Assembly: GCA_963699255.1 (NCBI GenBank)
Contig: OY969425.1
Location: 480,001-512,000 of the forward strand
Origin: an uncultured bacterium
Lineage (GTDB): Bacteria; Margulisbacteria; WOR-1; CAVSGV01
Reading direction: 5' to 3'
Length of the DNA: 32,000 nt
Shown here: in pieces, positions 1 through 16,671 of the stretch
Layout: every line of letters begins with the position of its first letter
How positions within the stretch are numbered: the first letter of the stretch is position 1
Notes under the pieces: generated by a model
Databases searched by the model: none
Seen by the model: the letters and a program-made list of their open reading frames with translations, nothing else
What the model was told of the DNA's origin: nothing
Translations under genes and position numbers: made by a program

Positions 1-1
1 T

Positions 2-556: not shown

Positions 557-601
557 CGTTTCTTCATATTTTCGATTATATTATGAAAGGAAGTATTCTA
601 A

Positions 602-1093
602 ATGAATAAACTGATCCGATCGATCACCCCGGTTGTGCTAGTCTTGTTTGTTTCCGTCTTTGTTTGTCCATGCTGGGCAAAAGAAGGAGATATAACGGCA
701 AAGGTTGAGATGCAAGGCGGAGTTGATCAAGGCACAATATTTGTAATGAAAGCGAGCTTATTCCGAGAAGATGCTTCGGGTATGAAGAATCCAATCTTAG
801 AAAACAACGCCATTAGGATTGAGGTTCCTGATGGATTCAATGTTCGAAGCGAAACAATTTCAACCACCAACGAAGGACAACACATATATCAGATAGTTGC
901 CCCAATAAATGAAAAAGAGTATCCCATCACATTAATATTCGACAATCAAAAAGAAGCCCCTTTGAGATTCGGCTATAAGATCAAAGTTGTTAATCCAGGA
1001 TCATACTATATGCAATTAGCGATAGGTTTTGGAGTGGTAATATTACTGTTGATCGGCTTAAAAGTGTTTTGCGATTCTTTTATAATAAAATGA
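602..1093 (+). CDS. Small exported membrane-anchored protein, family 'A' copy 1 (signal peptide + ~100-aa beta-rich body + C-terminal TM helix)
   Basis: The ATG is preceded by GAAAGGAAG. There is a signal peptide (MNKLIRSITPVVLVLFVSVFVCPCWA) and a C-terminal hydrophobic helix (LAIGFGVVILLLIGL). The stop overlaps the giant-ORF ATG (ATGA at 1090-1093). Paralogues start at 21751 and 22548. Confidence 0.75.
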   Translation: MNKLIRSITPVVLVLFVSVFVCPCWAKEGDITAKVEMQGGVDQGTIFVMKASLFREDASGMKNPILENNAIRIEVPDGFNVRSETISTTNEGQHIYQIVAPINEKEYPITLIFDNQKEAPLRFGYKIKVVNPGSYYMQLAIGFGVVILLLIGLKVFCDSFIIK

Positions 1094-4000
1094 AAACAAA
1101 ATTAACTTTATTATTAATGATGTTTATGCTGCTGTTTTTAAGCAAAGCATTTTTTAGTTGTTATGGCGTAGAATCAGTAATCAAACCCTCACCCAATTAT
1201 TTAGTAATTTTGGTTCACGGTATAGCTGAAACCAGCGATATATTTGATGATGATGGTAGCGGTCATCTAAAACCTTATCTAGAAGATTCCCTAAGTCTTC
1301 CAGGCTATGTCTATGCTTACGATTTTAATGATAACAAAGGATCAAATGTTGTCGCCGCAGATGAACTAGGCAATCAGTTTATCCCTCGGGCATTAAATGA
1401 TTTTAAAGCATGGTATGCCAGTAAAAACCACATAGCAGTTAATGATATCCCGCAAAATGTTATCCCTCAAAAAGTCGTTTTAATAGCCAAGAGTGAGGGC
1501 GGCCTAGCTTCCAGAGTGTACCTGACTTCCAATTATTATCATGATAATGTAAGAAAGCTCATCACATTGGATACCCCTCATCTAGGCTCAGATGCGGTAA
1601 CTTACAAAAAGCTACTATATACACCGGAGAATGTTGCCATGACTATGGCATATGCTGGTGTTGGCTTGGGATACATAATATTGCAAATGCAGGCACATAC
1701 AGCTTCCTTTGCGGATATATATTTTGATGGCGCGATATTTGCAGGGATTGTATCGCCAACAGAGCAGTTCATTTTAAAAGATTTTGTTGCAAAATGGGGC
1801 GATCCTGCCCTAGATGAGATGGACCCGGAAGGGGATTTTATTAAGCATTTGAAAGGTGCTGAAGTCCTCCCAAATAAATCGCCGATTGAATACCGATTGG
1901 TTTCTGCGCATGGCTTTCCATCTCCGGATATAGAAGGGATTAAAAGCTTTTATTTGCTTAAAGGAATTCCTCTAATTAATGCCATTGCAACCCCTTTTGA
2001 CAGCAGATATTGGGATCTTCCTACCACACAAGCTAAGGTTGAAAGTGTGGCAGCAGCAGTTGCAATTTCCGGAGGCACCTTTACAAAAGATGGGAGCATT
2101 GTTGTAGATATTGATAGCGCGTATGGACATGGAGTGTCGTTGTTTAGTCAAAATACAAAAAGATATGACTATCTCTTTTATAATGAACCGGTCGAAGAAT
2201 TTCTGAATGTCCAAATAAACAATGAGTACAATGATATTCATGCAGTCCAAGCCCTATCTGGCTTCAATCCAGCCTTAAATTGTCTGGATCTTATTCCTAT
2301 CGCTGATATGGGGAGTGTAATAGCTACTAATCTTGGCACAGCAATTGATATTGGGACTATTAAGATTGGTGGCGAAAAGGAAGATAGTCTTATATATAAT
2401 GCTTTTGCACATCATCATCTTGTTGAAAAGGTTTACTCCGAAGGCTCCCCCAACATCATAGATCAATGTTTGTTCGACACCCCCATGGCCACCGTCACTC
2501 ATCTTGACACCGATGTCTCGACTGAAGAATACAATATCAGCCAGAAGATCGTTCATACTGGCACAATTCAGCCTGTCGAGATCCTAAATACTTCCGAAGC
2601 CAGCGATACCCCGCCTTATGCAGCCGATCGTTCTGTTTCCCTCATCTTCAATGAAGGAACAACTAATGAAGTAGAGAAATATACATCATCCATGCTTGTG
2701 AAGGCCCCCGTCACTCAAATATCAGGAGTAATCCATGACTTTAAACCCTTGATGCTTCAAAGCTTCCAGATAAGTGAAAACTTTGCGGCATGGCAGGAAT
2801 TTCATCCGAACACCTGCTCGACGCATACAGATCCTCAGGGGTTTAAATATATCGATGTTGACGCGAATAAATTTCATCTTCATATGGACGAATGGGGAAA
2901 ATACACGATATCGGGTCTTAACTTTGCCGAGGGACAGAATCTGATCGGATTCAAGCTGACAAACAGGGCCAAATACAGCTCGAATCAGGTTTTGAAGGTG
3001 ATACAAAATACCATCCCCATGCAAGCCTCTAAATATCAGCCTGAATCGAATTTTATGACCAATAATGTCTATCAGCCCATAAGTGTTGAATTCAATAAAT
3101 CCACTTACTACGAAGACGAAGCGGGGAAAATTCAGATCGTCTCATTCGAAGTGGATGGAACGCCAATGCTCAGCAACGCCAATATAACTTCCGAGATCGA
3201 CGGAGCCTACCATCCCTATGCAAGAGTGAATTATACGCCCAAAACGCCGTTGTCCGACGGCGAACACGCGATCGTCGTCAGCGCAAAGTCGGACGTCGGC
3301 GTATCTCAAGCCATCTGGGCATTCTTTGTCGATACCCAGCCGCCGACTATATCGATCGAGGCATTGTCTCCTTTCTCGCCGCGCGCTCCCGGGACCGGCG
3401 AGGCGAACAACATATCGATCCGATACACCACAACAGACAACCTCTCGACATTTCTCAGAAGCATTACAGCCAGACTCTACGACTCGAATAATAACTTTAT
3501 TACTGAATTAGCTACATTTGATACACAAGCTGTTGGCGAAAACTTTATTCCTGTAAACAGTACACAGTTAACTGTAAACGGTTCTTTGATCCCTGACGGT
3601 AATTATTCGATCAAAATAAAAGCGTATGATCAGGCCGGCAATGTCACCACCGAATCTGTTGCTTTAGTAATCGACTCGACCCCGCCATCAATAATCCAGG
3701 CTGATGTCAACCCGAAACCTATGACCTCTAATTCAGATTCTCTAAACTTTAGCTCCCAGCTTTCGGAAAATTCGATAGTCACGATAAAGATGATAAATAA
3801 AGCGACAAATGTAGCTTCTGCTTATATAACACAGGCGCAAAGAGCGGGAAGTGAAGAGAGTGCAACAGCTTCCTATTCCTGGAGCTACAATAATCAATTC
3901 GGCTCCAACGGCCCCGACGACGGAATATACAGGCTGGAGATCACCGCCCAGGACCAGGCCGGCAACGTTTCCGATCCGTATGTTATCGATAATGTTAAGA

Positions 4001-7000
4001 TCGACCGAACTCCGCCGTTCATATTCTCGAACGCATGCCTGCCTTATGTGCTTGCAAATGTCGGCAACGATCCATACACAACAACTCTCAGTTATCAGGT
4101 ATCGGAATCAAATGACAAACCTGAGAACCAGGATGAGAGCTGTAATGTAACCGTCAGTTTATTTAATGAGAACTCAGGCGAGCTGATCAAGACATGGGAC
4201 AATGCGCCGGCGAATATCGGCGAAGTGAACTCGATAAACTGGAATGGGGATTCGACCCAGTACGGCAACGGGTCTTATAAATTCGCGATAACCGCTACGG
4301 ATGCATCCGGCAATTCTTCTACCGCGTATTCTTCCTGCGTCAAGAACGGCATCGCTCCTGTAATTTCATTTCCGGCAAATAACGGAACCGTATCCGGAAC
4401 TATCGCTATTCGCGGCACCGCAGTAGACCCCGACTGGACGAACAACCTGCCGTTCAAAGATTACAAAATATACTATGCTAATGGAAATGTGCAGTGGACA
4501 GGGGGCAGTGGGCAGGATCCGGATCCGTCTGTGTGGAGATCCGACGTTATCGAAGTCCCGGATGTTGACCGCGATCCGGCATCCGGTATCAGGAATCTAT
4601 CAATAAGGCCTTTGCAGAATGATTCCACACTCGCTTATCTCTACTCTAATGGGCTTGACAATGGAACTTACACTTTACTGCTTATCGCGGAAGAGGACGG
4701 AGGCACAACGTCGGCCTGCACAAGGGTCATCCGGGTCAGCAACGATCCTATGATAACGTCAACGAATGTTCCTGTGGTGAAACTTGACCCGCTTCCCCAA
4801 AAAGTCCATTTCACGTCTGACGGAAAAGTTACTCTTCCGATCTCGTTCATGAATGGGATCAAGGAATCGAACGTCAATATTGAAATAGCACAATTACACA
4901 ATTCCACAATGACCAATGAAGGTATTGTATTTTATAAATTCCAGCCGGACATCATCGGCAATCAGTACACAGGCAAACCGCAATATATACCCGGTAAAGA
5001 TCTAGGCTATTACCTCTGGACCGACGAGACCGGATGGCACATCCGCTGGTCATCGGACGGGACAAACCACCATTTCACGGGCAGTTTGATGGGGTCAGGA
5101 ATTACGGATATCCAAACCTTCAATTGGACTCCGTCAGGACAGGTACAGGGCTTTGTTAACTGGGATACGAATATGTCAAATGGCGAATCCGGCATTGACT
5201 TTACCGCGAACAGCGGCGGAATGATCATAATTACTCCGAAGATCGACGAAGATCCAAATGTACCCACTTTTAATGCTTCAAACATATATTTAGGCATGAC
5301 AAAAGCGACACAGGCATATTTACCCATCATGATAAACACTTCAATGGAAGGTGTCGCGCCGGCAGTTGTCAATTGGGACGGGAAGCTTGATACCGGAGGA
5401 TATGTTGATTCCGGCGTATATACCGTCCGAGTGCGTTCCGAAGGCGCGGACGGGGTCGGGCTTGCAACGGACGAAGCTCAGGTAGAGGTTGAAACGGACT
5501 ACGATGTGTCAAACGTTGAGACTGTCAATAACAGCTTCTCGCCGGTAGGCGCTCCCGATAGAGTGTCGATCTATTACAATGTTTCAAAAGATTCATATAT
5601 CACGGCCTATGTCTATCAGGACGGCAGCGGTACGCCTGCCGCAACCATAACCAGCGAGGCCTTCGTATCAGGAAATATGAACCCGAACCATAAGCATGTT
5701 ATTAACTGGCGCGGCAATTATCCGAACTCTGATTCCACCCAGTTCTTCAGCGGCGGCGGGTTCAATATAAAGATCATCGCGACTGCGGCTGACGGCTCCG
5801 GCAGTAAAGAGATCAATATCGACGGCATAAGTATTGCAGGAACAAGGACCGACTCAAGCCTTGCAAGCCTCGATCCGATAGGGGATGAGGTTATGTTCAA
5901 CGGCGTTCCTTCCAGGATAGCGAACGGCTCATCGGATTATTTCTTTGAAGCCCGCGGAACGGGGCGCCTGTATCCACCAAAGGAATTCAGCTTCAACATC
6001 GCTCCCTACGGAAGACAAACTGTCACTACTTATCCTTATGTTCCCTTCGCAGCGTTGATCCATAGGGGATATAAGCAGGTGGATGTAAAAATGCGCGGGG
6101 AGCTGAGCGGTGCAATAAGGGAGCATTTTACAGAGGGATCAGCTGGCGCAAGCGAACAGATACATACAGAAGGGTTTCGTGTCGGGCTTGATGAGATGGC
6201 GTGGGGTTTCAGGAGCGATAAAGAAGAAATGAACGCGGCCGCACAAAGAGGCCCTTATGCAATTTATTTGCGCGGCAAAAGTGTGAATAGCATATATGCG
6301 GGCAGGAATGCCGGCGCAACGACAAAATTCTACGGCAGCCCGTATCTTTCTTTGACTTTTAATACAGGTAGGGGGGATCCCGGTTATTTCCTGGATAATA
6401 TTGACAATATCCCGGTTATGGAACAATTTGATATAAACATTCCTCCGACCGTGGAAAGCCAGGGAGACGCAAAAGAAAATGATTATATAAAAGGAATATT
6501 GGAAAATATGATGAGTAAAATGACCCTGGACTACCCGAGCACAAAAGGGATGTTCAAGGTCGAGATAAATTATGACGATTTCAAGATAAATAAACATACA
6601 GATGCCGCGTCATCCAGTGGATTCATTTTTTCTCCCCGCAGGAGGGTAGCTACTATCCAGCCGCCAATCGGGAATAACGGATCGGATTTCTGGTGCCGCG
6701 CCAGGGTCATGCTTGAGGCGCCCGTCCAGTATTCGCGATTGACCAACAGGTTTATTCCCTTTTTTGGCTTTGTAAATAGGAATGTGTCAACTTCAGAATC
6801 TTTGGCGGGAGCTAATTACAATATAGACCAACTAGGTTTCCCTGGAGATGAGTTCTTCAATAAATCGAATGCAAAGCCGTATAATGAGTACGACGAAATG
6901 CTTGCTTCCGCTGCGGCAAGGCAGAACATGTCTAAAGCAGATCTGATTAAAGCTTTGAGCGATTTGAGCATCCAAAAGAATTATATCGGAACGTTAACAG

Positions 7001-10000: not shown

Positions 10001-13000
10001 AACCTCCAACAGTGATCATCAAAAGTTGCAATGTGGGAGATACAAGCTGTGAAGTGGTTTATTCGATACCTGAAGATGCGAAGGTAACGGTGAATGTTGT
10101 TGATCAGAACGGGACGGCAGTTGAAACCATTGTGACCGGTGAAACGCAGACAGCGGGACAATACGAGCCCGTCTGGAATTTCGATTCGGGGAATACGGAA
10201 CCCGGTGCGCAGTATTCATTCAAGATCTCAGCTGAGGATAAAGCGTTAAATACCGACGAAAAACAAAGCGCAACATTCAGTTTGCCCGGCCCGCTGGAAA
10301 TATCCGGTGTTTCCTCGGCTCCCGCGATATTCAATCCGAACAGCGAAATAATAAACAAATATACGACAATAAAATACCGGCTGTCTTCAAAAGCCGATCA
10401 ATCCCAGGTAACCATTAAAGTACTGACGGATGCCGGAGCTACTGTGAAGCGTTTGACGGACGGCGAATATCAGACGCCGGGATCATATTCGATCTTCTGG
10501 TACGGCGATGACCTGACGGGCAAAACCGTTACTGCGGGAAATTATACAATTGATATTTCAGCGGTCGATCCCCTTGGCAATAAAGCGAGTGTGCAGGTCC
10601 CTGTTATTGTGGCTGCAAATTCGTCATGCGTCCTTTCCGTGACCCCGGAAGTCTTCTCTCCGAACGGCGATGGCGTCGCTGATACAGCGACTTTCACTTA
10701 CTCTGTCGATTACTACTGGCAGTTGACGGGCGAGGCATATATTCAACTCGACGTCCTGGATGGCAGCGGAAATTCGATTTATACGTATTCAGACCATCAT
10801 ACTCAGGGCACGTACTCGCATATATGGAACGGGCAGGGGGCTTATGATGGGCAGTTCAATGCGGTCATAAAAATGACCGATCCCGCGGGCTCGGTGATCT
10901 ATTCAAATATTGTGCCTATAAAAGCTGATATGAAAGCCGGCTCGGCACTACCAGAAACAGGCTTCATTTATAATAACGGGTTCACTCCGAATGGAGACGG
11001 ACAGAGTGACACATGCGCATTCATCTATTCCATTGACGAGCCAAGTTATGTCACGGTAAAAGTCCATACGTTCAGCGCGACAGCATCTTATGACGCAACA
11101 AACCTTGTGAAAACCCTTGTTGATAATGTCCTGACGCCGGCCGGGACACAGGAAGTCATATGGGACGGCTCAACGGACGGGCCGGGAGATACCGACGGGA
11201 ACGGTTTCGTGAATAAAGGCGAATATGTTTTCGCCCTTGAAACTACGGACCAATTCGGCAACATATCGCCAAAGCAAGGCGCCACGGTCTGGGTTCAGGA
11301 TGTTCCTTTGAACATAAACGCTCCGTCTTTGATCGAGAACCCCACTCCGAAAGTTTTAGGATCAAATGGAAGCAACATCAATTTCGCTTTTACGCTTTCT
11401 CAAAGCCTTGAAGGAGAAGCACAGGAACCGGAAAAATTTACGATATCCGGAATGAAGATAAAGGCGGCGGGTATATATGATGTGGGGCGGGTCACAGTTA
11501 AAGTCTATGATCATGCCGGTAACCTTGCGGCTACTCTTGCGAATAAGCAGGTTTACGATAATAACGGGACAAAAACGGTTTCATGGGATGGCTCCGGCGC
11601 GTCGGAGGACAAATATACGATAATAGCTTCGGCGGAAGACTTGACGGGAGTCCCCGCGGCCCAGAGTATCAGCGGTGTAACTTATCTCGATAAAACCCCT
11701 CCGGTAATTTCGGGCGTTTCCATCAGCAGAAGTTGTTTCAGCCCGGGCATCAATGATGTATCAATTAACTATTCCGTTTCCGATAATCTCTCGGCGCTCA
11801 CGACCGATGTTGCCAACAAAGTCAAAGCCACGATCAAGGTCTATAATAATGATGTTCTGACTAAAACCATTACAGACGGCGTTACAAAAGATTCAGGTTC
11901 GGTTTCCGCCGATCTCTGGGACGGGACTAGGAACATCGGGGGATATGTAGGCACGGGCAATTCCGCAAGTAATGAACCGGACGGGGAATACACTATAAAG
12001 ATTTCAGCGGTCGATGTGGCGGGCAATACCGCGGAAGTTTCGCAGGCGGTTTATGTCGATACTATCGATCCTGATATAACGAATATTTCAATTTCTCCGA
12101 GTCCGTTCAGCCCCGGAGGAGCCAAGCCAAACTCAAACATAACTGCGAGTATAACCGATGAAAGCTCAGTGACATGGGAAGTGAAGATAGAGACTGGAGC
12201 AAATCCTGTAATTTCCTTCGGCTCCGGAACATCGGTCAGCTGCACCTGGAACGGGATGAACGGTATAGTAAGCTATGAGGGGGACGGAATTTATAATTGC
12301 GTCATAAGTGCTTTTGATGCGGCGGGGAATGTCTATCAGACCACCAGAGTTATTACGACCGACACCGTTGCTCCTGTTATAACCGCTTCAGCAAGCCCGG
12401 AATTCTTAAGCGGCAACATGGGACAGATAACAACGCTTGAGATGAGCATAAGTGACATGAATGACCATATATATTGGAATGTGATTATTGCCGGGAGCAC
12501 CGAGTCCGGAAGTGTTGAAGGAAATACAGTAAATGAGGTTTTCATCTGGGAGCCTCCGCATACATCTTCGGGTGACGGAAGCTATAATTTTGTTATAACA
12601 GCTACTGACGATGCCGGGAATACTCGGACAACTATTGAGACAGTATCAATAGATAATACTCCTCCCGTCATATCGATCGAATCGCCAGCCGGTCAAACAT
12701 GGCTAAAAGGATCGGTGTCTATTGATGGATCCGTTCAGGATCCTCATCCCGGAACATGGACACTTTATTATGCAGGCGGGATTATCGGATCCGGCACAGG
12801 GAACATATCAGATCAGCTGCTTGGCTCCCTTTATGTCGGCACTCATGATGGAGATATTGTCGTCTCTCTTGTCGCTACTGACGCGGCTGGCAATCCTGCC
12901 ACTCCTGTTTCAAGAGAATTGTATATCGATAACACTCCTCCGGTGTTCACATATATTACAAGTGAAGTCGGCACATCAATGCAAAATTATTTTAATCCAT

Positions 13001-15237
13001 ATATTGATCAAAGTGAGATCGAGATAATAGCTAATGTTTTTGATAATTCATACGATCCATCCATATATCCTCATCCAGGCTCCCTGTCTCCATTATCGGT
13101 TTCTGCCGAAGTTTGGCTTGGCGAAACGTTTATCAAGGGACTGGGCAGCCAGCTATATTATTCAACTACAGAAACACATGGGTTTAATTGGGATGGCTTG
13201 AATGCATCAGGTGATTATGTGAACGAGGGTGTTTATACCGTCAAACTGCATGCTATTGACGGCCTTGGGAATATTTCCACTTCGGAATATCAGATTAATC
13301 TTGCCGATGACCAGCAATTAACCACAGGAAAAGGCAGCTTATTTTCGCATGATCCGAATTTAACTTTATCAGGCACTATTTTGAAGGTGAAGCTCATTAG
13401 TGGAGAGAGTTGGGGCAAAAGCACAATTTCTTTACCTAATTGGGTGGGTGATCCCAGCTATAGTGGTGTGGGCGCATGTATTGATTTTACCGCGCAAAGA
13501 GACCAAAATGCTCTTTTTACTGGAGAGGCTTCTCCTACTGGGGGAAGTTATTTATATGAAATATTAGGCGCGAACGGCAGTTATCTTTGGAGAAGTTATA
13601 CATCCGGTAGTGGTTCTAAGACAGCGGATGTTAATCAGGGAATTCGATATCGGGCTTTCTTCTATACTTGGGCGGGAGGAGGACTCATACACGCAACAAT
13701 AGATCAACCAATGTATAATATCATTCAGACCAAATCATTGGCTATATCATCTGATATCTGGCATGATCTTTGTTCCTCTGAAGTAAAAGAAGCGGATCCT
13801 TCTGCATCAAATTCTTCTGGGTCTATTCAGCATTATGTTTGGCCATCGACATTTATGGGATATATATATTATCAACCCAGTTGGTCTGAGGGATGGTCAA
13901 ATTTATATAATTTCGGTAACAAAGAAATTGTGTATAGTAAAAAAATAAATGGTAATTGGAAGTCCACTGGTAATTGGGATAATGAGTTCTGGCCCAGATG
14001 TGATTTTCCGATAGAAACAAGGATAACAACTGCAGCCGGCGACTCCATAAACCCATCAGTTGCCTGTGATTCAACCGGTTATAAAGTCTATGTTGTCTGG
14101 GAAGATTATCGCAACGGAAAAGCGGAGATATATTACAAGCAATCTGTAACTTCCGGCGAAACTTGGCCTTCTAATGATACCCAGCTAATTTCTTCTTCAG
14201 ATGCCTGTATGCTGCCGTCAATTGCTGTCGATCAAGGGAATGCATACATTTATGTCGCATTCATAAAACAAGTTAACAGCCATAACGAATTGTGGGTAAA
14301 AAAAGGGACGATCAGTGGAAGTAATGTTACATGGAATAACAATCCTGTCCGCATAACCAGGTATGAGTTTTCAAGCTGTGAAGCTTCCAAGCCATCGATC
14401 GTCTGCGACACGTCCGGCAATGCCTATGTCGCATGGGAAGACACAAGGACAGGAACCTCCGAAATATTCTCCCAGAAAGTACCTTCCAACTTCGCGCCAT
14501 TCTCCGGCTCAGGCATGACAACAATGTCCATGCCGAATGATAAGCCTGTCATTCAAACGCAAATGGTCATTCAATCCGTATCAAGCACCCCGGAGCTTAT
14601 ATCTCCGATCGGCGGAGCAACAGATAACACACTTCGACCAACATTCAAATGGTATGGGGTACAAAATGTTACAGATTATCGAATAGAATGCGCAACATCA
14701 TCGGACGAATCATCGCTTGCCACTTCGATGGATTATTTCACGGCAACGATCTCCGATGTATCAGGCGCCAAACCCATATGCGAATTTACCCAGAACGAAC
14801 ACCTCATGGGCCTTGATGAAAGCGCCCCAAACCATCCTTTCTGGTACTGGAGAGTACAGACGATCACCTCGGAAGCGTCAACGTCAGAAGTCGGCTCTTT
14901 CAGAATTGAACTGCCAGCAAGCTTGTCAGGCGTTACTAACTGGCCAAATCCGTTCGATCCCAACAAGGAAAGAACAAAGATCCGTTATAGGCTTGGCCGA
15001 GAACCCAATTCGGTCACGATCAGAATATATGACATCACCGGAGCATTAGTTAAAGAGTTTGACGGAACAACGAATCCCGAAGGGGCCAGCATTTGGAACA
15101 AATATAACGATGTCGAGTGGGATGGAAGGAACGGCAGGGGAGACATGGTGCTAAATGGAGTGTATCCGTTCGAGATAACCGTCAATTACGGTGATAAGTC
15201 AGTCAGCGGGCGGGGAAAGATGGTGGTGTTAAAATGA
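1090..15237 (+). CDS. Giant (~4,715 aa) secreted surface protein: lipase-like head, FlgD-Ig-like module array, propeller-like segment, T9SS-type C-terminal domain
   Basis: This is a single uninterrupted 14.1-kb frame; the ORF track starts it at 1069. I prefer ATG 1090, which gives MKTKLTLLLMMFMLLFLSKAFF (a signal peptide) and an ATGA overlap with the upstream gene. Domain evidence is listed in the sub-features. Confidence 0.9.
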   Translation: MKTKLTLLLMMFMLLFLSKAFFSCYGVESVIKPSPNYLVILVHGIAETSDIFDDDGSGHLKPYLEDSLSLPGYVYAYDFNDNKGSNVVAADELGNQFIPRALNDFKAWYASKNHIAVNDIPQNVIPQKVVLIAKSEGGLASRVYLTSNYYHDNVRKLITLDTPHLGSDAVTYKKLLYTPENVAMTMAYAGVGLGYIILQMQAHTASFADIYFDGAIFAGIVSPTEQFILKDFVAKWGDPALDEMDPEGDFIKHLKGAEVLPNKSPIEYRLVSAHGFPSPDIEGIKSFYLLKGIPLINAIATPFDSRYWDLPTTQAKVESVAAAVAISGGTFTKDGSIVVDIDSAYGHGVSLFSQNTKRYDYLFYNEPVEEFLNVQINNEYNDIHAVQALSGFNPALNCLDLIPIADMGSVIATNLGTAIDIGTIKIGGEKEDSLIYNAFAHHHLVEKVYSEGSPNIIDQCLFDTPMATVTHLDTDVSTEEYNISQKIVHTGTIQPVEILNTSEASDTPPYAADRSVSLIFNEGTTNEVEKYTSSMLVKAPVTQISGVIHDFKPLMLQSFQISENFAAWQEFHPNTCSTHTDPQGFKYIDVDANKFHLHMDEWGKYTISGLNFAEGQNLIGFKLTNRAKYSSNQVLKVIQNTIPMQASKYQPESNFMTNNVYQPISVEFNKSTYYEDEAGKIQIVSFEVDGTPMLSNANITSEIDGAYHPYARVNYTPKTPLSDGEHAIVVSAKSDVGVSQAIWAFFVDTQPPTISIEALSPFSPRAPGTGEANNISIRYTTTDNLSTFLRSITARLYDSNNNFITELATFDTQAVGENFIPVNSTQLTVNGSLIPDGNYSIKIKAYDQAGNVTTESVALVIDSTPPSIIQADVNPKPMTSNSDSLNFSSQLSENSIVTIKMINKATNVASAYITQAQRAGSEESATASYSWSYNNQFGSNGPDDGIYRLEITAQDQAGNVSDPYVIDNVKIDRTPPFIFSNACLPYVLANVGNDPYTTTLSYQVSESNDKPENQDESCNVTVSLFNENSGELIKTWDNAPANIGEVNSINWNGDSTQYGNGSYKFAITATDASGNSSTAYSSCVKNGIAPVISFPANNGTVSGTIAIRGTAVDPDWTNNLPFKDYKIYYANGNVQWTGGSGQDPDPSVWRSDVIEVPDVDRDPASGIRNLSIRPLQNDSTLAYLYSNGLDNGTYTLLLIAEEDGGTTSACTRVIRVSNDPMITSTNVPVVKLDPLPQKVHFTSDGKVTLPISFMNGIKESNVNIEIAQLHNSTMTNEGIVFYKFQPDIIGNQYTGKPQYIPGKDLGYYLWTDETGWHIRWSSDGTNHHFTGSLMGSGITDIQTFNWTPSGQVQGFVNWDTNMSNGESGIDFTANSGGMIIITPKIDEDPNVPTFNASNIYLGMTKATQAYLPIMINTSMEGVAPAVVNWDGKLDTGGYVDSGVYTVRVRSEGADGVGLATDEAQVEVETDYDVSNVETVNNSFSPVGAPDRVSIYYNVSKDSYITAYVYQDGSGTPAATITSEAFVSGNMNPNHKHVINWRGNYPNSDSTQFFSGGGFNIKIIATAADGSGSKEINIDGISIAGTRTDSSLASLDPIGDEVMFNGVPSRIANGSSDYFFEARGTGRLYPPKEFSFNIAPYGRQTVTTYPYVPFAALIHRGYKQVDVKMRGELSGAIREHFTEGSAGASEQIHTEGFRVGLDEMAWGFRSDKEEMNAAAQRGPYAIYLRGKSVNSIYAGRNAGATTKFYGSPYLSLTFNTGRGDPGYFLDNIDNIPVMEQFDINIPPTVESQGDAKENDYIKGILENMMSKMTLDYPSTKGMFKVEINYDDFKINKHTDAASSSGFIFSPRRRVATIQPPIGNNGSDFWCRARVMLEAPVQYSRLTNRFIPFFGFVNRNVSTSESLAGANYNIDQLGFPGDEFFNKSNAKPYNEYDEMLASAAARQNMSKADLIKALSDLSIQKNYIGTLTAPTCTASFEYYLTDPISGEFGDILPGTEIIPITVPDGEQPILISEKTPNKYYTGGGTIEIQGLQVGAKTDYTSAYDNTNHLPFFSFNFPASEAEIQQFQSNNDALLDKFKRSPSLWTGISASSPHELDITSVTRSIEAVTKLGQSIKYGSNGYYYKSDTLGSLWGWNSNNYPNATDIRYSIDDISDQSISLDTDQTGTGEFSTNSCLIGSIQGASGQMWATADDPMLSAFGGCIASREIFNRDGFSGYSQFINISDPYIKNVVNLQNMNSPDMTKYTFWKYDPAISSIDAFNPVDNQYLTYDNWSIDLKDLSGGENTDLAAVTPEMDSSDHLKDQFKVKLRLDSAEKKYIDITGYASGEYYLMYFDGNSWNQIGHSLKGANGMLGWWNVSRLNGKYTVVLKLAGSDIISSQDVLIGSIVKNDHVTTVSSPYKRAEVTFKPGAFDKDQLVTVTPVKMDEIDISNRPLIPTVGPIVEVKPSPYYFSCGSTESEDYRPTLVFKYTKEDLLEMYPDLKEVNGTLEVASLGLNIHQITQNGDLQVISDNKQSYNDGIYAFEGPLDHFSEYALIRGKYNLIAPIIQTDRYNVNFSPITVYGTAPADSVLNVYVSPSKEVDISSLGSIASLDLPKNDSGIAEFRFDRIPLAAEGDNYIFVTSTQGGARTLSDIRVNYDLTPPTVEVAADIPAYSPNGDGKFDIVTYKVKSNEDGKLYFTLQGTNGDTIINNELSCEADEEIKIYWDGSQLYMYLGADKVILGEAPVREDGEYAYIVFAIDESGNISNNIVGKTIVDRVAPKISGLTASPNPFSPNDDQVNDTTTISFEVNEPSYATVKIFRGGELFRSYGFSIPDALSSIPCFTWDGSGDHNELIGGSYTYYVEAEDSVGNMSTSETGTIFVDREPYLVQYAYCDPYYFAPKNPKNNMTNVKYSLSRDDVKVTVEIFNGTGKVIATPLDEQVENSGEHQVSWNGEGAIDGTYGFRVKALSVDGSASCEVTGNLVIDNEPPTVIIKSCNVGDTSCEVVYSIPEDAKVTVNVVDQNGTAVETIVTGETQTAGQYEPVWNFDSGNTEPGAQYSFKISAEDKALNTDEKQSATFSLPGPLEISGVSSAPAIFNPNSEIINKYTTIKYRLSSKADQSQVTIKVLTDAGATVKRLTDGEYQTPGSYSIFWYGDDLTGKTVTAGNYTIDISAVDPLGNKASVQVPVIVAANSSCVLSVTPEVFSPNGDGVADTATFTYSVDYYWQLTGEAYIQLDVLDGSGNSIYTYSDHHTQGTYSHIWNGQGAYDGQFNAVIKMTDPAGSVIYSNIVPIKADMKAGSALPETGFIYNNGFTPNGDGQSDTCAFIYSIDEPSYVTVKVHTFSATASYDATNLVKTLVDNVLTPAGTQEVIWDGSTDGPGDTDGNGFVNKGEYVFALETTDQFGNISPKQGATVWVQDVPLNINAPSLIENPTPKVLGSNGSNINFAFTLSQSLEGEAQEPEKFTISGMKIKAAGIYDVGRVTVKVYDHAGNLAATLANKQVYDNNGTKTVSWDGSGASEDKYTIIASAEDLTGVPAAQSISGVTYLDKTPPVISGVSISRSCFSPGINDVSINYSVSDNLSALTTDVANKVKATIKVYNNDVLTKTITDGVTKDSGSVSADLWDGTRNIGGYVGTGNSASNEPDGEYTIKISAVDVAGNTAEVSQAVYVDTIDPDITNISISPSPFSPGGAKPNSNITASITDESSVTWEVKIETGANPVISFGSGTSVSCTWNGMNGIVSYEGDGIYNCVISAFDAAGNVYQTTRVITTDTVAPVITASASPEFLSGNMGQITTLEMSISDMNDHIYWNVIIAGSTESGSVEGNTVNEVFIWEPPHTSSGDGSYNFVITATDDAGNTRTTIETVSIDNTPPVISIESPAGQTWLKGSVSIDGSVQDPHPGTWTLYYAGGIIGSGTGNISDQLLGSLYVGTHDGDIVVSLVATDAAGNPATPVSRELYIDNTPPVFTYITSEVGTSMQNYFNPYIDQSEIEIIANVFDNSYDPSIYPHPGSLSPLSVSAEVWLGETFIKGLGSQLYYSTTETHGFNWDGLNASGDYVNEGVYTVKLHAIDGLGNISTSEYQINLADDQQLTTGKGSLFSHDPNLTLSGTILKVKLISGESWGKSTISLPNWVGDPSYSGVGACIDFTAQRDQNALFTGEASPTGGSYLYEILGANGSYLWRSYTSGSGSKTADVNQGIRYRAFFYTWAGGGLIHATIDQPMYNIIQTKSLAISSDIWHDLCSSEVKEADPSASNSSGSIQHYVWPSTFMGYIYYQPSWSEGWSNLYNFGNKEIVYSKKINGNWKSTGNWDNEFWPRCDFPIETRITTAAGDSINPSVACDSTGYKVYVVWEDYRNGKAEIYYKQSVTSGETWPSNDTQLISSSDACMLPSIAVDQGNAYIYVAFIKQVNSHNELWVKKGTISGSNVTWNNNPVRITRYEFSSCEASKPSIVCDTSGNAYVAWEDTRTGTSEIFSQKVPSNFAPFSGSGMTTMSMPNDKPVIQTQMVIQSVSSTPELISPIGGATDNTLRPTFKWYGVQNVTDYRIECATSSDESSLATSMDYFTATISDVSGAKPICEFTQNEHLMGLDESAPNHPFWYWRVQTITSEASTSEVGSFRIELPASLSGVTNWPNPFDPNKERTKIRYRLGREPNSVTIRIYDITGALVKEFDGTTNPEGASIWNKYNDVEWDGRNGRGDMVLNGVYPFEITVNYGDKSVSGRGKMVVLK
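1195..2450 (+). other. Domain: lipase-like alpha/beta hydrolase (class-2 lipase / PGAP1-like motif order)
   Basis: NYLVILVHGI (HG strand); VVLIAKSEGGLASRVYL (A-x-S-x-G nucleophile elbow, Ser codon 1492-1494); KLITLDTPHLGS. Candidate acid and base residues are KDGSIVV (2089-2091) and AFAHHHLVEKV (2410-2418). Confidence 0.6.
3328..5000 (+). other. Domain array I: Ig-like (FlgD-Ig / Big-like) modules
   Basis: Module starts VDTQPPTISI (3328), IDSTPPSIIQ (3669) and IDRTPPFIF (4000). Each module closes with DG-x-Y...(I/V)-x-A-x-D-x-AGN. Confidence 0.6.
9010..13300 (+). other. Domain array II: at least 10 FlgD-Ig-like modules
   Basis: D-x-(T/E/V)-(P/A)P boundaries occur at 9010, 9361, 9991, 11685, 12055, 12358, 12649 and 12925. 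SPNGDG/SPNDD strands occur at 9055, 9408, 10654 and 10981. W(D/N)G...G-x-Y motifs recur throughout. Confidence 0.65.
14020..14490 (+). other. Domain: BNR/Asp-box-like beta-propeller segment
   Basis: Repeated strands YKVYVVWEDYRNGKAEIYYKQS and NAYVAWEDTRTGTSEIFSQK, plus SVTSGETWP (Asp-box-like S-x-x-x-G-x-T-W). Confidence 0.45.
14921..15234 (+). other. Domain: T9SS type-A-like C-terminal sorting domain (FlgD-Ig fold)
   Basis: NWPNPFDPNKERTKIRYRL...VTIRIYDITGALVKEF...WDGRNGRGDMVLNGVYPFEI...GRGKMVVLK at the extreme C-terminus. This matches the N-P-F-N-P...I-Y-D-x-x-G...S-G-V-Y...K-(M/L)-x-L-(L/V)-K pattern of Por-secretion tails. Confidence 0.65.
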
Positions 15238-15647
15238 ACAGTGGACAGTTAACAGTGGGAAGTGAAAGTACTGTATCAAAAGAGTTTGAGTTCGACTTTG
15301 AAAGATTGAATGTTTATAGAACATCAATATTGAATTTTCGAAGTATTTTAGCTCTCACTAAATCCTTGCCGAGAGATCTGCAGTTTTCATTGGCGGATCA
15401 ATTGAGAAGAGCGGCTCTCTCCATATCAAATAACATAGCTGAGGGAAGCGGAAAAGAATCGAAAAAAGAAAAAGCGTATTTTTATTCCACGGCTCTTCAT
15501 TCTGCCAGAGAATGCGTCCCTATGTTAACGATTCTTTTCGAGGAACGAATCATCAATCAAAATGATTATGCCCAATTTCGTCGAATTATAGTAGAGATTA
15601 CAAGCATGTTAAGAGGATTGATTGGATCAGTGAGGCAATATAAATGA
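15234..15647 (+). CDS. Four-helix-bundle protein (the '23S rRNA intervening-sequence protein' family)
   Basis: LADQLRRAALSISNNIAEGSGKESKKEKAYFYSTALHSARE is the family signature (A-x-SI-x-x-NIAEG...S-x-x-E). It has ATGA overlaps with both neighbours (15234-15237, 15644-15647). The true start may be a few codons inside the ORF. Confidence 0.8.
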   Translation: MNSGQLTVGSESTVSKEFEFDFERLNVYRTSILNFRSILALTKSLPRDLQFSLADQLRRAALSISNNIAEGSGKESKKEKAYFYSTALHSARECVPMLTILFEERIINQNDYAQFRRIIVEITSMLRGLIGSVRQYK

Positions 15648-16595: not shown

Positions 16596-16671
16596 GCTAT
16601 CAACGGATTAAAAAACGGACCAACGGATGAAACTGTCAACGGATGTGGCCACGGAGCAACGGATAAATGAA
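16596..16671. repeat. Left arm of palindromic element: six tandem (C/A)(A/C)ACGGA(T/C/G) octamers
   Basis: Octamers at 16601, 16613, 16621, 16637, 16649 and 16657. Positions 16633-16671 pair with 17188-17225. The element begins with GCTATCAACGGAT. Confidence 0.8.

What the first reader, a model, noticed from the sequence alone, without database searches (positions are those of the whole stretch)
1090..15237. 4,715-aa mosaic ORF: enzyme head, long Ig-module stalk, propeller, sorting tail
Seen in sequence:
- One unbroken 14.1-kb frame.
- Module boundaries are marked by recurring (V/I)D-x-(T/E/V)-(P/A)P motifs at about 3328, 3669, 4000, 9010, 9361, 9991, 11685, 12055, 12358, 12649 and 12925.
- These are followed by SP-x-FSPNGDG/NDD strands (9055, 9408, 10654, 10981) and closed by W(D/N)G...DG-x-Y...A-x-D-x-AGN, the pattern of FlgD-Ig-like domains.
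- The copies are strongly diverged at nucleotide level, so the length is not a collapsed or expanded-repeat assembly artefact.
- Two (V/A)WED-x-R-x-G-x-x-EI(Y/F) strands and an Asp-box-like SGETW (14090-14480) precede the tail.

Inference: this is a cell-surface fibre that presents a hydrolase several thousand residues away from its sorting domain. ORFs of this size are rare in bacteria, and in uncultivated lineages they have been proposed to serve attachment or predation.
Basis: partly seen in the sequence, partly recalled or inferred. Interest (0 to 1): 0.7.

Follow-up and report, generated by a model that had tools for sequence, protein, structure and literature searches.

The report
Giant lipase-tipped surface fibre gene
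This 14-kb gene is real and encodes a member of an undescribed family of giant cell-surface proteins of the uncultivated phylum Margulisiibacteriota: a lipase-like enzyme at one end, about thirty beta-sandwich modules in between, and at the other end a sorting domain that is always encoded next to its own outer-membrane docking protein.

Summary
One unbroken frame runs from ATG 1090 to the stop at 15237 (4,715 aa).

The protein is not a random mosaic. It belongs to a rare, collinear family of 3,400-5,300-aa proteins found almost only in Candidatus Margulisiibacteriota.

Parts, in order:
- signal peptide;
- lipase/PGAP1-like alpha/beta hydrolase with an intact HG, Ser135, Asp334, His441 set;
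- an extremely conserved linker plus beta-sandwich segment;
- 18-19 FlgD-Ig/Big_13 modules in blocks, separated by family-specific modules with no Pfam match (about a third of the length), which model as beta-sandwich arrays where they were modelled;
- only three BNR-type blades, not a demonstrated propeller;
- a FlgD-Ig-type C-terminal tail.

Two neighbours are new. A PorV/PorQ-family outer-membrane barrel gene follows the tail in the window and 12 related loci. A small membrane-anchored partner gene precedes every head-bearing gene examined. ATGA overlaps link partner to giant gene, and giant gene through an inserted gene to the barrel gene.

[quoted passage not shown] It lies outside Bacteroidota and is uncharacterised. 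Surface location and activity are inferred.

The parts
602..1093 (+). Small partner gene (163 aa): signal peptide, a domain of about 100 aa and a C-terminal transmembrane segment. Its stop overlaps the giant gene's ATG (ATGA).
   Evidence: Homologous small genes sit directly upstream of every head-bearing gene examined in L001 and L003. No Pfam or NCBIfam match.
1090..1167 (+). Signal peptide of the giant protein (aa 1-26). The Cys at aa 24 is a non-canonical lipobox at best.
   Evidence: Read from the translation. The AF2 model has an N-terminal helix at aa 2-22. The N-terminal hydrophobic segment aligns across paralogues.
1195..2484 (+). Lipase/PGAP1-like alpha/beta-hydrolase head with a helical cap (aa 36-465). 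Catalytic set: H43-G44 oxyanion motif, nucleophile elbow A-K-S135-E-G-G, D334 in the KDGS motif, H441.
   Evidence: Pfam PGAP1 scores 29.3 bits against a cut-off of 24.3; DUF676, Palm_thioest and Abhydrolase_1 score weaker. AF2 model: mean pLDDT 77, pTM 0.72. Foldseek matches BlEst2. The family profile hits only lipases and PGAP1 in the PDB.
2485..3204 (+). Segment B (aa 466-705): an extremely conserved linker that models as disordered (aa 474-532), followed by beta-sandwich domains.
   Evidence: Between paralogues this segment is 75-87% identical in amino acids (60-65% in comparisons with the L003 giant), where the hydrolase part is 22-46% between the same copies. Third-codon-position identity is only 37-55%. 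pLDDT is 31-37 over 480-530, with confident beta structure after 534. No Pfam match.
3205..4320 (+). Ig block 1 (aa 706-1077): Big_3_2/Big_3_3/Big_13 and three FlgD-Ig-like modules.
4321..5250 (+). Module D (aa 1078-1387): family-specific and strongly conserved. No family match; not modelled.
   Evidence: 63-65% identical to the L003 and L006 giants, and found in about 35 relatives. The only Pfam signal is a weak Big_7 hint at E 0.04.
5251..5805 (+). Ig block 2 (aa 1388-1572): two FlgD-Ig-like modules.
5806..9069 (+). Central family-specific region (aa 1573-2660): F1, a domain of about 100 aa plus linker, and F2 (aa 1872-2660).
   Evidence: No Pfam or PDB sequence match. Only 66 homologue clusters among 1.84 billion representatives, mostly proteins of 1,000-7,600 aa, the shorter ones probably fragments. 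AF2 model of aa 1860-2665: mean pLDDT 70; the C-terminal two thirds are confident and all-beta. Foldseek matches are tandem beta-sandwich arrays: SiiE, alpha-2-macroglobulin, the HPI S-layer protein and GhpA. No enzyme fold.
9070..13278 (+). Ig block 3, the main stalk (aa 2661-4063): 12 FlgD-Ig/Big_13-like modules found by HMM, plus one probable copy at aa 3855-3945.
13279..14019 (+). Region I1 (aa 4064-4310): lineage-specific, lower G+C, no family match.
   Evidence: No homologue among the giant relatives apart from weak matches in L006 and L028. G+C is 0.40 against 0.46-0.48 in the flanks. No Pfam match.
14020..14514 (+). Three BNR/Asp-box-type beta-propeller blades (aa 4311-4366, 4373-4422, 4432-4475).
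   Evidence: Homologues carry PF02012 and PF13088. A blade HMM built from 509 blades gives E 5e-23, 3e-5 and 1.5e-12, and finds no further significant blade. NCBIfam TIGR04275 scores 28 bits, below its cut-off of 85.
14515..14925 (+). Pre-tail module J (aa about 4476-4612): conserved in relatives, no family match.
14926..15237 (+). C-terminal FlgD-Ig-type sorting tail (aa 4613-4715) and stop codon.
   Evidence: FlgD_ig scores 34 bits against a cut-off of 27. Por_Secre_tail scores 18 (cut-off 27) and TIGR04183 scores 15.9 (cut-off 23). The tail matches the CTD of PorU at E 2e-9. It is 53-73% identical in relatives.
15234..15647 (+). Four-helix-bundle gene (23S rRNA IVP / TIGR02436, Avd-like), inserted between the giant gene and the barrel gene with ATGA overlaps at both ends.
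   Evidence: Present at this position only in the window and L006, so it is probably not a core part.
15644..16591 (+). PorV/PorQ-family outer-membrane beta-barrel gene (315 aa): the conserved downstream partner.
   Evidence: NF033709 PorV_fam scores 112.9 bits against a cut-off of 90. A homologue lies directly downstream of the tail in L006, L008, L009, L010, L012, L013, L014, L016, L026 and L028, at 31-70% identity. L020 has one too. L027 has a second cargo-plus-PorV pair.

Best explanation
The gene encodes a giant outer-surface fibre of a Margulisiibacteriota bacterium.

Proposed mechanism, with the status of each step:
1. The N-terminal signal peptide takes the chain through Sec (shown: the signal peptide; inferred: the export).
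2. The small membrane-anchored protein encoded just upstream, and translationally coupled, accompanies the lipase head in the periplasm as a chaperone or inhibitor (inferred from the conserved pairing only).
3. The C-terminal FlgD-Ig-type domain is recognised by the PorV/PorQ-family barrel encoded downstream in the same operon. This barrel shuttles the C-terminus and then holds it at the outer membrane, in the way Bacteroidota T9SS type B cargo such as SprB stay bound to a cognate PorP/SprF protein (shown: tail homology and gene pairing; inferred: binding and surface anchorage).
4. The rest of the chain projects outward: roughly thirty beta-sandwich-sized modules plus three BNR-type blades, of the order of 100 nm if extended. 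The N-terminal lipase/PGAP1-like serine hydrolase is therefore at the distal tip, where it hydrolyses ester lipids on whatever the fibre touches (shown: the fold class and an intact Ser-Asp-His/HG set; inferred: activity and substrate).

The architecture is a conserved orthologous family, not a recent mosaic.
For: - ORF: intact, with no DNA repeats.
- Family: collinear full-length relatives of 4,446-5,281 aa have the same order of head, B, D, F1, F2, stalk, blade, J and tail. Genome hits are Candidatus Margulisiibacteriota, WOR-1 and Saganbacteria.
- Head: Pfam PGAP1 above cut-off. S135 and G137 are invariant; H43-G44 and H441 are nearly invariant; the D334 motif is mostly conserved. The AF2 model is an alpha/beta hydrolase with a cap. 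BlEst2 lipase is the only non-Ig match among the 50 Foldseek hits listed. Apart from one weak match of the Ig part to SiiE, the family profile hits only lipases and PGAP1 in the PDB.
- Stalk: 18 FlgD-Ig-like modules. The B and F2 models match tandem beta-sandwich fibres, including SiiE and the T9SS-secreted grappling-hook protein GhpA.
- Tail and barrel: FlgD_ig above cut-off, and a match to the PorU CTD. The downstream gene passes the curated PorV/PorQ cut-off. The tail-then-barrel pairing recurs in 12 further loci across the phylum.
- Operon: ATGA overlaps link partner to giant, giant to IVP, and IVP to barrel.
- Precedent: type B CTD cargo bind cognate, genetically linked PorP/SprF shuttles, and SprB binds SprF (PMC9143113, PMC12618676).
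Against: - The tail scores below the curated cut-offs of both T9SS CTD models: TIGR04183 15.9 against 23, PF18962 18 against 27, PF13585 16.6 against 27.
- No core T9SS component (SprA/Sov, PorKLMN, PorU) could be looked for in the genome. The 1,132-aa neighbour has only a 31-bit resemblance to SprA, whose cut-off is 200.
- T9SS is described as confined to Bacteroidota or the FCB group (PMC7463736, PMC12398890).
- PorV/PorQ-family barrels also occur in lineages without T9SS; the same protein hits Pfam UPF0164.
- Modules D, F1 and I1 remain without a fold.
- An independent assembly carries two frameshifting indels.
- No expression or localisation data exist.
Confidence: 0.6

Rival explanations
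1. Contact-dependent weapon. The same fibre, but the PGAP1-like head is a phospholipase toxin delivered to the membranes of neighbouring or prey cells. The small upstream membrane-anchored protein is then the cognate immunity protein that protects the producer during export. The stand-alone head paralogues, each with its own partner gene, would be further toxin/immunity pairs.
For: - Every head-bearing gene examined has its own diverged partner gene immediately upstream, 31-45% identical among partners.
- The heads diversify (22-46% identity between most paralogues, up to 58% for one pair) while the adjoining segment B is held at 60-87%.
- PGAP1-like phospholipases are used as antibacterial effectors with periplasmic immunity proteins: TplE/Tle4 with TplEi (PMC5611513, PMC6099711). 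The PDB entry 4r1d, which I recall as TplE, is among the profile hits.
- Foldseek matches of the stalk include GhpA, the grappling hook of a predatory bacterium.
- Giant proteins in other uncultivated phyla have been linked to predation (bioRxiv 10.1101/2023.11.21.568195).
Against: - No similarity between the partner and any known immunity protein; it has no family hit at all.
- The partner could equally be a foldase or an assembly factor.
- A lipase at the end of a tethered fibre has no evident way to reach a target's inner leaflet.
- Nothing is known of the organism's lifestyle.
- The stand-alone paralogues lack a sorting tail.
Confidence: 0.2
2. Structural envelope component. The protein is not an extended fibre with a free tip. 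It would be a cell-envelope or sheath protein held at both ends, with the N-terminus lipidated or bound through segment B and the C-terminus on the barrel. The hydrolase-like head would then serve as an anchoring or maturation module rather than an exo-enzyme.
For: - A Cys closes the signal peptide in the window protein and in five of its closest paralogues.
- Distant relatives of 6,462-7,612 aa keep the hydrolase-like domain but have Gly in place of the nucleophile Ser (GWGVGG, AWGEAG). The domain can therefore be retained without catalysis.
- Segment B is under very strong purifying selection, as expected of a binding interface.
- One Foldseek match of the stalk is an S-layer protein.
Against: - The sequence before the Cys does not fit the standard lipobox rule, because a Lys lies inside the required uncharged stretch.
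- Many paralogues and most giant relatives have no Cys there.
- In this protein the catalytic Ser, His and HG motif are all intact.
Confidence: 0.12
3. Artefact or pseudogene. The 14-kb frame would be a chimeric or over-polished assembly product, or a gene that is broken in the living population.
For: - The Logan assembly of run ERR10755942 has two single-base deletions that split the frame.
- The orthologue in the closest MAG (L006) is split into at least three ORFs.
Against: - The two assemblies otherwise agree at 99.94% over 7.2 kb.
- Both indel sites lie inside modules that are continuous in many relatives.
- In the Logan contig the called genes tile the region with hardly a gap across both indels, so no further stops have accumulated.
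- At least five relatives are intact from head to tail at 4,446-5,281 aa.
- No internal DNA repeats exist that could mislead an assembler.
Confidence: 0.04

Closest known systems
SprB-SprF and other T9SS type B cargo with cognate PorP/SprF shuttle or anchor proteins (Flavobacterium johnsoniae, Porphyromonas gingivalis)
   Same: A very large repetitive surface protein with a Sec signal peptide and a C-terminal Ig-like sorting domain. It is genetically linked to a dedicated outer-membrane beta-barrel gene whose product binds the cargo and keeps it on the surface (PMC9143113, PMC12618676). Here the giant gene is followed by a barrel gene in the window and 12 related loci.
   Different: - The barrel belongs to the PorV/PorQ family (NF033709), not to PorP/SprF.
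- The tail is FlgD-Ig type and scores below the type A and type B CTD cut-offs.
- The organism is a Margulisiibacteriota bacterium, outside the phyla in which T9SS is described.
- An enzyme sits at the distal N-terminus.
- A second conserved partner gene lies upstream.
- Core T9SS genes were not testable.
T9SS type A cargo with PorV (gingipains; 'T9SS type A sorting domain' proteins)
   Same: An Ig-like C-terminal domain of about 80-100 aa with the PNPF-type first strand and a K-x-hydrophobic-K type ending. The tail matches the CTD of PorU at E 2e-9. Many stand-alone relatives of the blade region carry PF18962 tails. PorV is the family of the neighbouring barrel.
   Different: Type A cargo share a single PorV and are cleaved and linked to anionic lipopolysaccharide (A-LPS) by PorU. 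Here each cargo has its own adjacent PorV-like gene (window, L027, L028). The curated CTD thresholds are not reached.
Bacterial true lipases and PGAP1-like hydrolases (B. subtilis LipA, BlEst2, Burkholderia/Pseudomonas family I lipases, GPI inositol-deacylase PGAP1, TplE/Tle4)
   Same: HG oxyanion motif, a Sm-x-Ser-x-Gly-Gly elbow, an acid in a (N/K)DG(S/D) motif, and a distal His. Like BlEst2, the catalytic domain is followed by beta-sandwich domains (PMC10816834).
   Different: Sequence similarity is confined to the elbow region (E 2e-4 at best). The head has a large helical cap and is fused to a 4,200-aa stalk. Substrate is unknown.
Giant repetitive adhesins and fibres (SiiE, LapA-type adhesins, GhpA grappling hook of Aureispira)
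   Same: Tandem beta-sandwich fibre architecture. These are the top Foldseek matches of the modelled stalk parts. GhpA is also a T9SS substrate.
   Different: SiiE and LapA are T1SS substrates without a Sec signal peptide. None of these carries an N-terminal lipase. There is no sequence homology beyond the Ig fold.
Giant Omnitrophota proteins ('Archaeovorins')
   Same: A very large ORF in an uncultivated lineage that is discussed in terms of attachment or predation. Margulisbacteria are listed among phyla enriched in very large genes (bioRxiv 10.1101/2023.11.21.568195; PMC11573180).
   Different: Those proteins are 30,000 aa or longer, with many enzymatic domains (glycosyl transferases and hydrolases, peptidases, NUDIX, SecA-like). 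This one is 4,715 aa with a single enzyme domain and an Ig stalk. None of the homologues found here is attributed to Omnitrophota.

Membership tests
Alpha/beta-hydrolase, PGAP1-like / lipase (Pfam PF07819) | Profile match above the curated gathering score | tested here: met
   25.2 bits for the whole protein and 29.3 bits for the 520-aa piece, against a cut-off of 24.3. Supporting sub-threshold hits: DUF676, Palm_thioest, Abhydrolase_1.
Alpha/beta-hydrolase, PGAP1-like / lipase (Pfam PF07819) | Nucleophile elbow Sm-x-Ser-x-Sm and HG oxyanion motif | tested here: met
   A-K-S135-E-G-G. S135 and G137 are invariant in 21 sequences. H43-G44 are present in at least 90%.
Alpha/beta-hydrolase, PGAP1-like / lipase (Pfam PF07819) | Acid and His of the triad, correctly placed in the fold | tested here: inconclusive
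   D334 (KDGS) and H441 are conserved in the alignment. Some paralogues have N at 334, with a D two residues later.
Alpha/beta-hydrolase, PGAP1-like / lipase (Pfam PF07819) | Esterase or lipase activity | not testable with these tools
   Needs an enzyme assay.
FlgD Ig-like domain (Pfam PF13860) and Big_13 (PF19077) | Profile matches above the gathering score, repeated | tested here: met
   FlgD_ig 136 bits with 6 stretches; Big_13 101 bits with 5 stretches. An iterated HMM finds 18 copies, including the tail.
T9SS type A CTD (TIGR04183 / PF18962) | C-terminal domain reaching the curated score | tested here: not met
   TIGR04183 15.9 bits against 23; PF18962 18.1 bits against 27. The resemblance is real (PorU CTD region, E 2e-9) but below family thresholds.
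T9SS type B CTD (TIGR04131 / PF13585 CHU_C) | C-terminal domain reaching the curated score | tested here: not met
   The tail scores 16.6 bits against 27. The stronger CHU_C and TIGR04131 hits fall on internal stalk modules at aa 2772-2854, not on the tail.
T9SS cargo with shuttle system | Sec signal peptide on the cargo | tested here: met
   N-terminal hydrophobic signal sequence.
T9SS cargo with shuttle system | Genetically linked PorV/PorQ or PorP/SprF-type outer-membrane barrel | tested here: met
   Window 15644-16591 scores 112.9 bits on NF033709 against a cut-off of 90. The pairing is conserved in 12 other loci.
T9SS cargo with shuttle system | Core machinery in the genome (SprA/Sov, PorK/L/M/N, PorU/PorZ) | not testable with these tools
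   Only 32 kb of this genome is available. The 1,132-aa neighbour gives 31.5 bits on SprA against a cut-off of 200, which is not evidence of a translocon.
BNR/sialidase-type beta-propeller (PF02012, PF13088) | Blade repeats homologous to BNR/Asp-box blades | tested here: met
   Homologues of aa 4300-4480 are BNR/BNR_2 proteins with 6-11 tandem blades. The blade HMM gives E 5e-23, 3e-5 and 1.5e-12.
BNR/sialidase-type beta-propeller (PF02012, PF13088) | Enough blades (four or more, typically six) to close a propeller | tested here: not met
   Only three blades are detectable. The next best candidate has E 0.57. Relatives have 1-3. No Pfam BNR hit on the protein itself. No structure model was made of this region.
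Giant Omnitrophota 'Archaeovorin' proteins | Length of 30,000 aa or more with a multi-enzyme domain set and a SecA-like domain | tested here: not met
   4,715 aa, one hydrolase domain, otherwise Ig-like modules. Family description from bioRxiv 10.1101/2023.11.21.568195.

The most novel reading that the evidence does not exclude
Margulisiibacteriota, a phylum related to Cyanobacteria and far from Bacteroidota, may use a self-contained 'cargo CTD plus private PorV-like barrel' module. This would be either a minimal relative of the type IX pathway or a T9SS-independent docking system. Its job would be to mount fibres about 100 nm long whose tips carry PGAP1-like phospholipase toxins. Each toxin would be paired with a membrane-anchored immunity protein. 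The whole would be a contact-dependent killing or predation device of a new type, with the stand-alone head-plus-partner cassettes as an exchangeable arsenal.
Probability: 0.15. Interest if true: 0.8.

Novelty: new variant of a known kind. Interest (0 to 1): 0.55.

Why it matters
- Two surveys list Margulisbacteria among the phyla richest in very large proteins, and one notes that these proteins lack any functional (COG) assignment (bioRxiv 10.1101/2023.11.21.568195; PMC11573180). This locus gives one such family a concrete, testable anatomy: an enzyme tip, a conserved stalk plan, a sorting tail and two dedicated partner genes.
- A conserved CTD-cargo/PorV-family gene pair across a non-FCB phylum bears on where the type IX sorting logic came from, and on whether PorV-like barrels can anchor cargo without the full T9SS.
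- The head-plus-partner cassettes offer a compact system for asking whether these lipases are toxins with immunity proteins, or enzymes with foldases.

Tried and rejected
1. Gene conversion or head-swap cassettes as the reason for the extreme conservation of segment B. Rejected: third-codon-position identity there is 37-55%, close to the 27-45% of the poorly conserved hydrolase part, so the conservation is purifying selection on the protein. The exception is the tandem pair P0005/P0006 at 71%.
2. A hidden enzyme in the 1,088-aa central region. There is no Pfam, NCBIfam or PDB sequence hit. The AF2 model with Foldseek gives only beta-sandwich arrays. The weak LPMO and CBM33 matches are core beta-sandwich similarity.
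3. A complete propeller. The blade HMM finds three blades only. PDB sequence searches of the C-terminal region gave nothing.
5. Exact look-up of the PorV-like protein to find the source contig: not on record.
6. The 1,132-aa neighbour as an SprA-like translocon. Only 31 bits, no PDB hit, and no NCBIfam hit for its L028 homologue. Left open.
7. T1SS or T5SS adhesin. Rejected on anatomy: a Sec signal peptide is present, and no RTX repeats, autotransporter barrel or transporter genes were seen.
8. Promoter and terminator scans were no better than shuffles.
9. Literature search for T9SS in Margulisbacteria found nothing.
Full report
**1. The observation**

The window contains one + strand ORF, 1069..15237. 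Its translation has no internal stop. The first ATG is at 1090 and gives 4,715 aa beginning MKTKLTLLLMMFMLLFLSKAFFSC, a typical signal peptide.

- The strict boundary motif (V/I)D-x-(T/E/V)-(P/A)P occurs six times, against 0.05 expected from shuffles.
- The other named sites are one-residue variants.
- The SPNGDG/NDD strands, twelve W(D/N)G, eight A-x-D-x-(A/S)GN, the two WED-x-R-x-G strands and SGETW are all there.

At DNA level the longest internal direct repeat is 45 nt at 71% identity. The length therefore does not come from collapsed or expanded repeats. A frame of 4,722 sense codons cannot arise by chance at this base composition (inference).

**2. Contiguity**

An independent assembly exists. 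Logan contig L027 (run ERR10755942) matches window 1-7182 at 99.94%. It differs by one substitution and by two frame-breaking changes:
- GGG to GG at window 4510;
- GC to A at window 6695-6696.

Gene calling on L027 therefore gives 1,159 + 709 + ... aa.

Three things argue that the window's frame is the functional one.
- Both sites lie inside modules that are continuous in many relatives.
- In L027 the called genes tile the region almost without a gap across both indels, so no further stops have accumulated.
- At least five relatives are intact from head to tail at 4,446-5,281 aa.

The indels are most simply sequencing or assembly errors, but a strain variant cannot be excluded. The orthologue in the closest MAG (L006) is likewise split into several ORFs.

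**3. Anatomy**

*Family searches and repeats.* Pfam and NCBIfam find three things: an N-terminal alpha/beta hydrolase (PGAP1 above its cut-off; DUF676, Palm_thioest and Abhydrolase_1 below theirs), Big_3_2/Big_3_3/Big_13, and FlgD_ig. An HMM iterated on the protein itself finds 18 FlgD-Ig-like modules:

| Position (aa) | Modules found |
|---|---|
| 768-1077 | 3 |
| 1388-1572 | 2 |
| 2661-3846 | 11 |
| 3996-4063 | 1 |
| 4623-4700 (the tail) | 1 |

A probable further copy lies at aa 3855-3945. These modules cover only about 1,900 aa.

A tile-against-self search shows no internal repeats in aa 1-715, 1135-1426, 1543-2706 or 4078-4292. Pfam is silent there too.

*The head (aa 36-465).* I modelled aa 1-770 with an alignment of 21 family members. 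The model has mean pLDDT 77 and pTM 0.72, and shows an alpha/beta hydrolase with a large helical cap.
- Foldseek against the PDB returns the Bacillus licheniformis lipase BlEst2 for the catalytic part. The other hits match the Ig-like domains that follow it.
- A profile of the family finds only lipases and PGAP1 in the PDB: B. subtilis LipA, GPI inositol-deacylase, BlEst2, staphylococcal lipase 2, Burkholderia/Pseudomonas family I lipases and 4r1d. E-values run from 2e-4 to 0.03.
- In the alignment, S135 and G137 of the A-K-S-E-G-G elbow are invariant. H43-G44 and H441 are nearly invariant.
- The acid lies in a (K/N)(D/N)G(S/D) motif, which is KDGS (D334) in this protein.
- I could not measure triad distances because model coordinates are not exposed.

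*Segment B (aa 466-705).* This was the most unexpected feature.
- Between paralogues whose hydrolase parts are mostly 22-46% identical, this segment is 75-87% identical, or 60-65% against the L003 giant.
- Third-codon-position identity in B is only 37-55%, close to that of the poorly conserved hydrolase part. The conservation is therefore purifying selection on the protein, not recent gene conversion.
- The first 60 residues (DTPMATVTHLDTDVS...) model as disordered, with pLDDT 31-37.
- The rest models as beta-sandwich domains.
- A strongly constrained but unstructured linker suggests a processing site or a binding site. BlEst2 was deposited in a 'propeptide form', described as inhibited by its C-terminal domains (PMC10816834, citing PDB 6WPX). 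That is only an analogy.

*The central region (aa 1573-2660).*
- It has 66 homologue clusters among 1.84 billion representative proteins. Most are in proteins of 1,000-7,600 aa, and the shorter ones are probably fragments.
- A model of aa 1860-2665 built with 20 sequences has mean pLDDT 70. Its C-terminal two thirds are confident and all-beta.
- Foldseek matches are tandem beta-sandwich fibres: SiiE, bacterial alpha-2-macroglobulin, the Deinococcus HPI S-layer protein, and GhpA, the T9SS-secreted grappling hook of Aureispira. No enzyme fold appears.
- The modelled part of this 'gap' in the stalk is therefore more stalk, built from family-specific domains.
- Module D (aa 1078-1387) is even better conserved, 63-65% to the L003 and L006 giants. 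It was not modelled.

*The C-terminal region.*
- Homologues of aa 4300-4480 are BNR/Asp-box proteins (PF02012, PF13088) with 6-11 tandem blades. Many of them have T9SS-type tails.
- An HMM built from 509 such blades finds exactly three blades in the giant protein: 4311-4366, 4373-4422 and 4432-4475. Nothing significant lies upstream.
- Giant relatives have one to three blades.
- The blades are real, but a closed propeller is not demonstrated.
- Aa 4064-4310 are lineage-specific, with lower G+C.

*The tail (aa 4613-4715).* The tail passes the FlgD_ig cut-off at 34 bits. It resembles the CTD of PorU (E 2e-9). It stays below the curated T9SS type A and type B CTD thresholds.

**4. It is a family, not a mosaic**

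I searched eleven segments of the protein against the relatives. Proteins complete at both ends (P0015, P0016, P0017, P0020, P0022) share one order: hydrolase, B, D, F1, F2, blade, J, tail. P0013 and P0023, which lack the N-terminal end, keep the same order from where they begin.

Scanning one genome per GTDB species with the F2 alignment gave 21 loci.
- Thirteen are titled Candidatus Margulisiibacteriota, candidate division WOR-1 or Candidatus Saganbacteria.
- Six are unnamed MAGs, including the closest hit, the MFD01476.bin.2.44 MAG (55% identity).
- There are single weak hits in a Desantisbacteria MAG and in a 'Clostridia' MAG.

The rest of the window carries housekeeping genes (ispG, purB, purQ). 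The region is therefore chromosomal.

**5. Two conserved partner genes**

*Downstream barrel.* After an inserted four-helix-bundle gene, window 15644-16591 encodes a 315-aa protein. It passes the curated NCBIfam cut-off for the PorV/PorQ family, 112.9 bits against 90.
- A homologue lies immediately after the giant gene's tail in L006, L008, L009, L010, L012, L013, L014, L016 and L026, at 31-68% identity.
- The same holds in the paralogous locus L028 (70%).
- It also holds in the distant, probably termite-gut, lineage L020 (E 5e-12, below the family cut-off).
- L027 shows a second FlgD-Ig-tailed protein followed by its own PorV gene, just upstream of the window.

*Upstream partner.* Window 602-1093 encodes a 163-aa protein with a signal peptide, a domain of about 100 aa and a C-terminal transmembrane segment. 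Related proteins precede every head-bearing gene I could examine:
- in L001, the 240-aa and 204-aa genes before P0005 and P0006;
- in L003, the 310-aa, 238-aa and 144-aa genes before P0004, a head fragment and the 4,126-aa giant.

*Operon structure.* Partner to giant, giant to four-helix-bundle gene, and that gene to barrel each overlap by ATGA. This points to one translationally coupled operon. Promoter and terminator scans were uninformative.

**6. Mechanism**

The closest documented logic is T9SS type B cargo. SprB, itself a giant adhesin, stays bound to SprF, and PG1035 to PorP. Type B substrates depend on cognate, genetically linked PorP/SprF shuttles (PMC9143113, PMC12618676).

I therefore propose these steps:
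1. Sec export of the chain.
2. Recognition of the FlgD-Ig tail by the private PorV-like barrel.
3. Translocation, then retention of the C-terminus at the outer membrane.
4. Projection of a fibre whose distal tip is the lipase head.

With roughly thirty beta-sandwich-sized units at 3-4 nm each (general knowledge of Ig-domain dimensions), the fibre would be about 100 nm long if extended. That figure is inference.

What the lipase attacks is open. The best-supported generic reading is hydrolysis of ester lipids on contacted surfaces. The cognate upstream partner, and the diversification of heads next to a constant segment B, fit a toxin/immunity arrangement like the PGAP1-like TplE with TplEi (PMC5611513, PMC6099711). 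They fit a foldase arrangement equally well. I give the antagonism reading about 0.2.

**7. Limits**

- T9SS is described as confined to Bacteroidota or the FCB group (PMC7463736, PMC12398890), and no paper links it to Margulisbacteria.
- I could not search this genome for the core machinery.
- PorV/PorQ-family barrels also occur in lineages without T9SS.
- The claim is therefore 'works like a CTD-cargo/cognate-barrel pair', not 'is a T9SS substrate'.
- Surface location, enzyme activity and expression are all inferred.

**8. Novelty and verdict**

Two surveys list Margulisbacteria among phyla enriched in very large proteins, and one of them stresses that these proteins have no functional assignment. 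I found no description of this family.

It is a new variant of a known kind: a giant Ig-repeat surface protein with a C-terminal sorting domain and a cognate barrel. Four things distinguish it:
- its phylum;
- a PorV-family rather than PorP-family partner;
- a lipase at the distal end;
- a second conserved partner gene.

Interest is moderate to fairly high at 0.55.

Noticed in passing
window 21751-23100 (+): Two relic cassettes of the partner-plus-head type. The first is a 160-aa partner homologue (21751-22233) followed by a 104-aa N-terminal head fragment (22237-22551), which keeps the LVHG motif and is 39% identical to the giant's head. The second is another partner homologue (22548-23063) followed by a tiny head remnant at 23044-23110. 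Both head remnants break off at the same FSRLYAL(F/V)P junction, so a truncated cassette was duplicated. The rest of the 218-aa ORF overlaps the minus-strand gene and is probably spurious.
   Followed up: partly
window 15234-15647 and 16627-17187; L001, L003, L006: A four-helix-bundle gene (23S rRNA IVP / TIGR02436, distantly Avd-like) is wedged between the giant gene and its barrel gene, with ATGA overlaps at both ends. Copies are scattered through the related head-paralogue clusters. A GxxExxY/PDDEXK_3 gene follows the barrel gene. Both look like small insertion-prone genes rather than parts of the system.
   Followed up: partly
window 17243-21629; L028 10657-14822: The order barrel gene, NHL-propeller gene, then a 1,132-aa gene is syntenic with locus L028 in the related MAG, at 70%, 65% and 59% identity. 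The 1,132-aa product has a weak OMP_b-brl C-terminus and a 31-bit resemblance to SprA. The giant's body is orthologous to a different locus of that MAG (L006). The giant's last 450 aa or so are slightly closer to the L028 protein (58-73%) than to the L006 orthologue (49-69%). This hints at exchange of the 3' end between paralogous loci.
   Followed up: partly
L027 1-5500 (sequence directly upstream of the window): A second FlgD-Ig-tailed protein (a 539-aa fragment) is followed by its own PorV gene (298 aa). After these come a LolA-like/TP_0789-like gene, a 262-aa gene and a 401-aa beta-helix protein whose C-terminus is the window's first ORF (choice-of-anchor Q hint). LolA-like genes also sit at the start of the head-paralogue clusters in L001 and L003.
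   Followed up: partly
L001 and L002 (same sample ERZ25039480): Two contigs share the same tandem of stand-alone head paralogues (P0005, P0006, each with a partner gene and IVP genes). They differ downstream, where phage-integrase, DprA-like and HTH genes are rearranged. A third head gene lies on the opposite strand. This suggests a recombinationally active paralogue island.
   Followed up: no
proteins P0044 (6,462 aa) and P0046 (7,612 aa): Distant relatives keep a lipase-like domain (weak LCAT and Palm_thioest hits) but have Gly where the nucleophile Ser should be (GWGVGG, AWGEAG). P0046 adds an N-terminal Amidase_6 domain. The head can therefore decay to a pseudo-enzyme or be supplemented by another enzyme.
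   Followed up: partly
window 2509-2685 (aa 474-532): The most conserved stretch of the whole family within this clade (ALFDTPMATVTHLDTDVS...) is predicted to be disordered, with pLDDT 31-37. In more distant relatives it is replaced by Ser/Thr-rich low-complexity linkers. It may be a cleavage or docking site. Unexplained.
   Followed up: no
window 1-3000 and 13001-14000: G+C is 0.38-0.42 over the head and 0.40 over the lineage-specific region I1, against 0.46-0.50 over the stalk.
   Followed up: no
window 23119-24261 (-): A 380-aa protein fuses an N-terminal RDD membrane domain to a trypsin-like serine peptidase domain.
   Followed up: no
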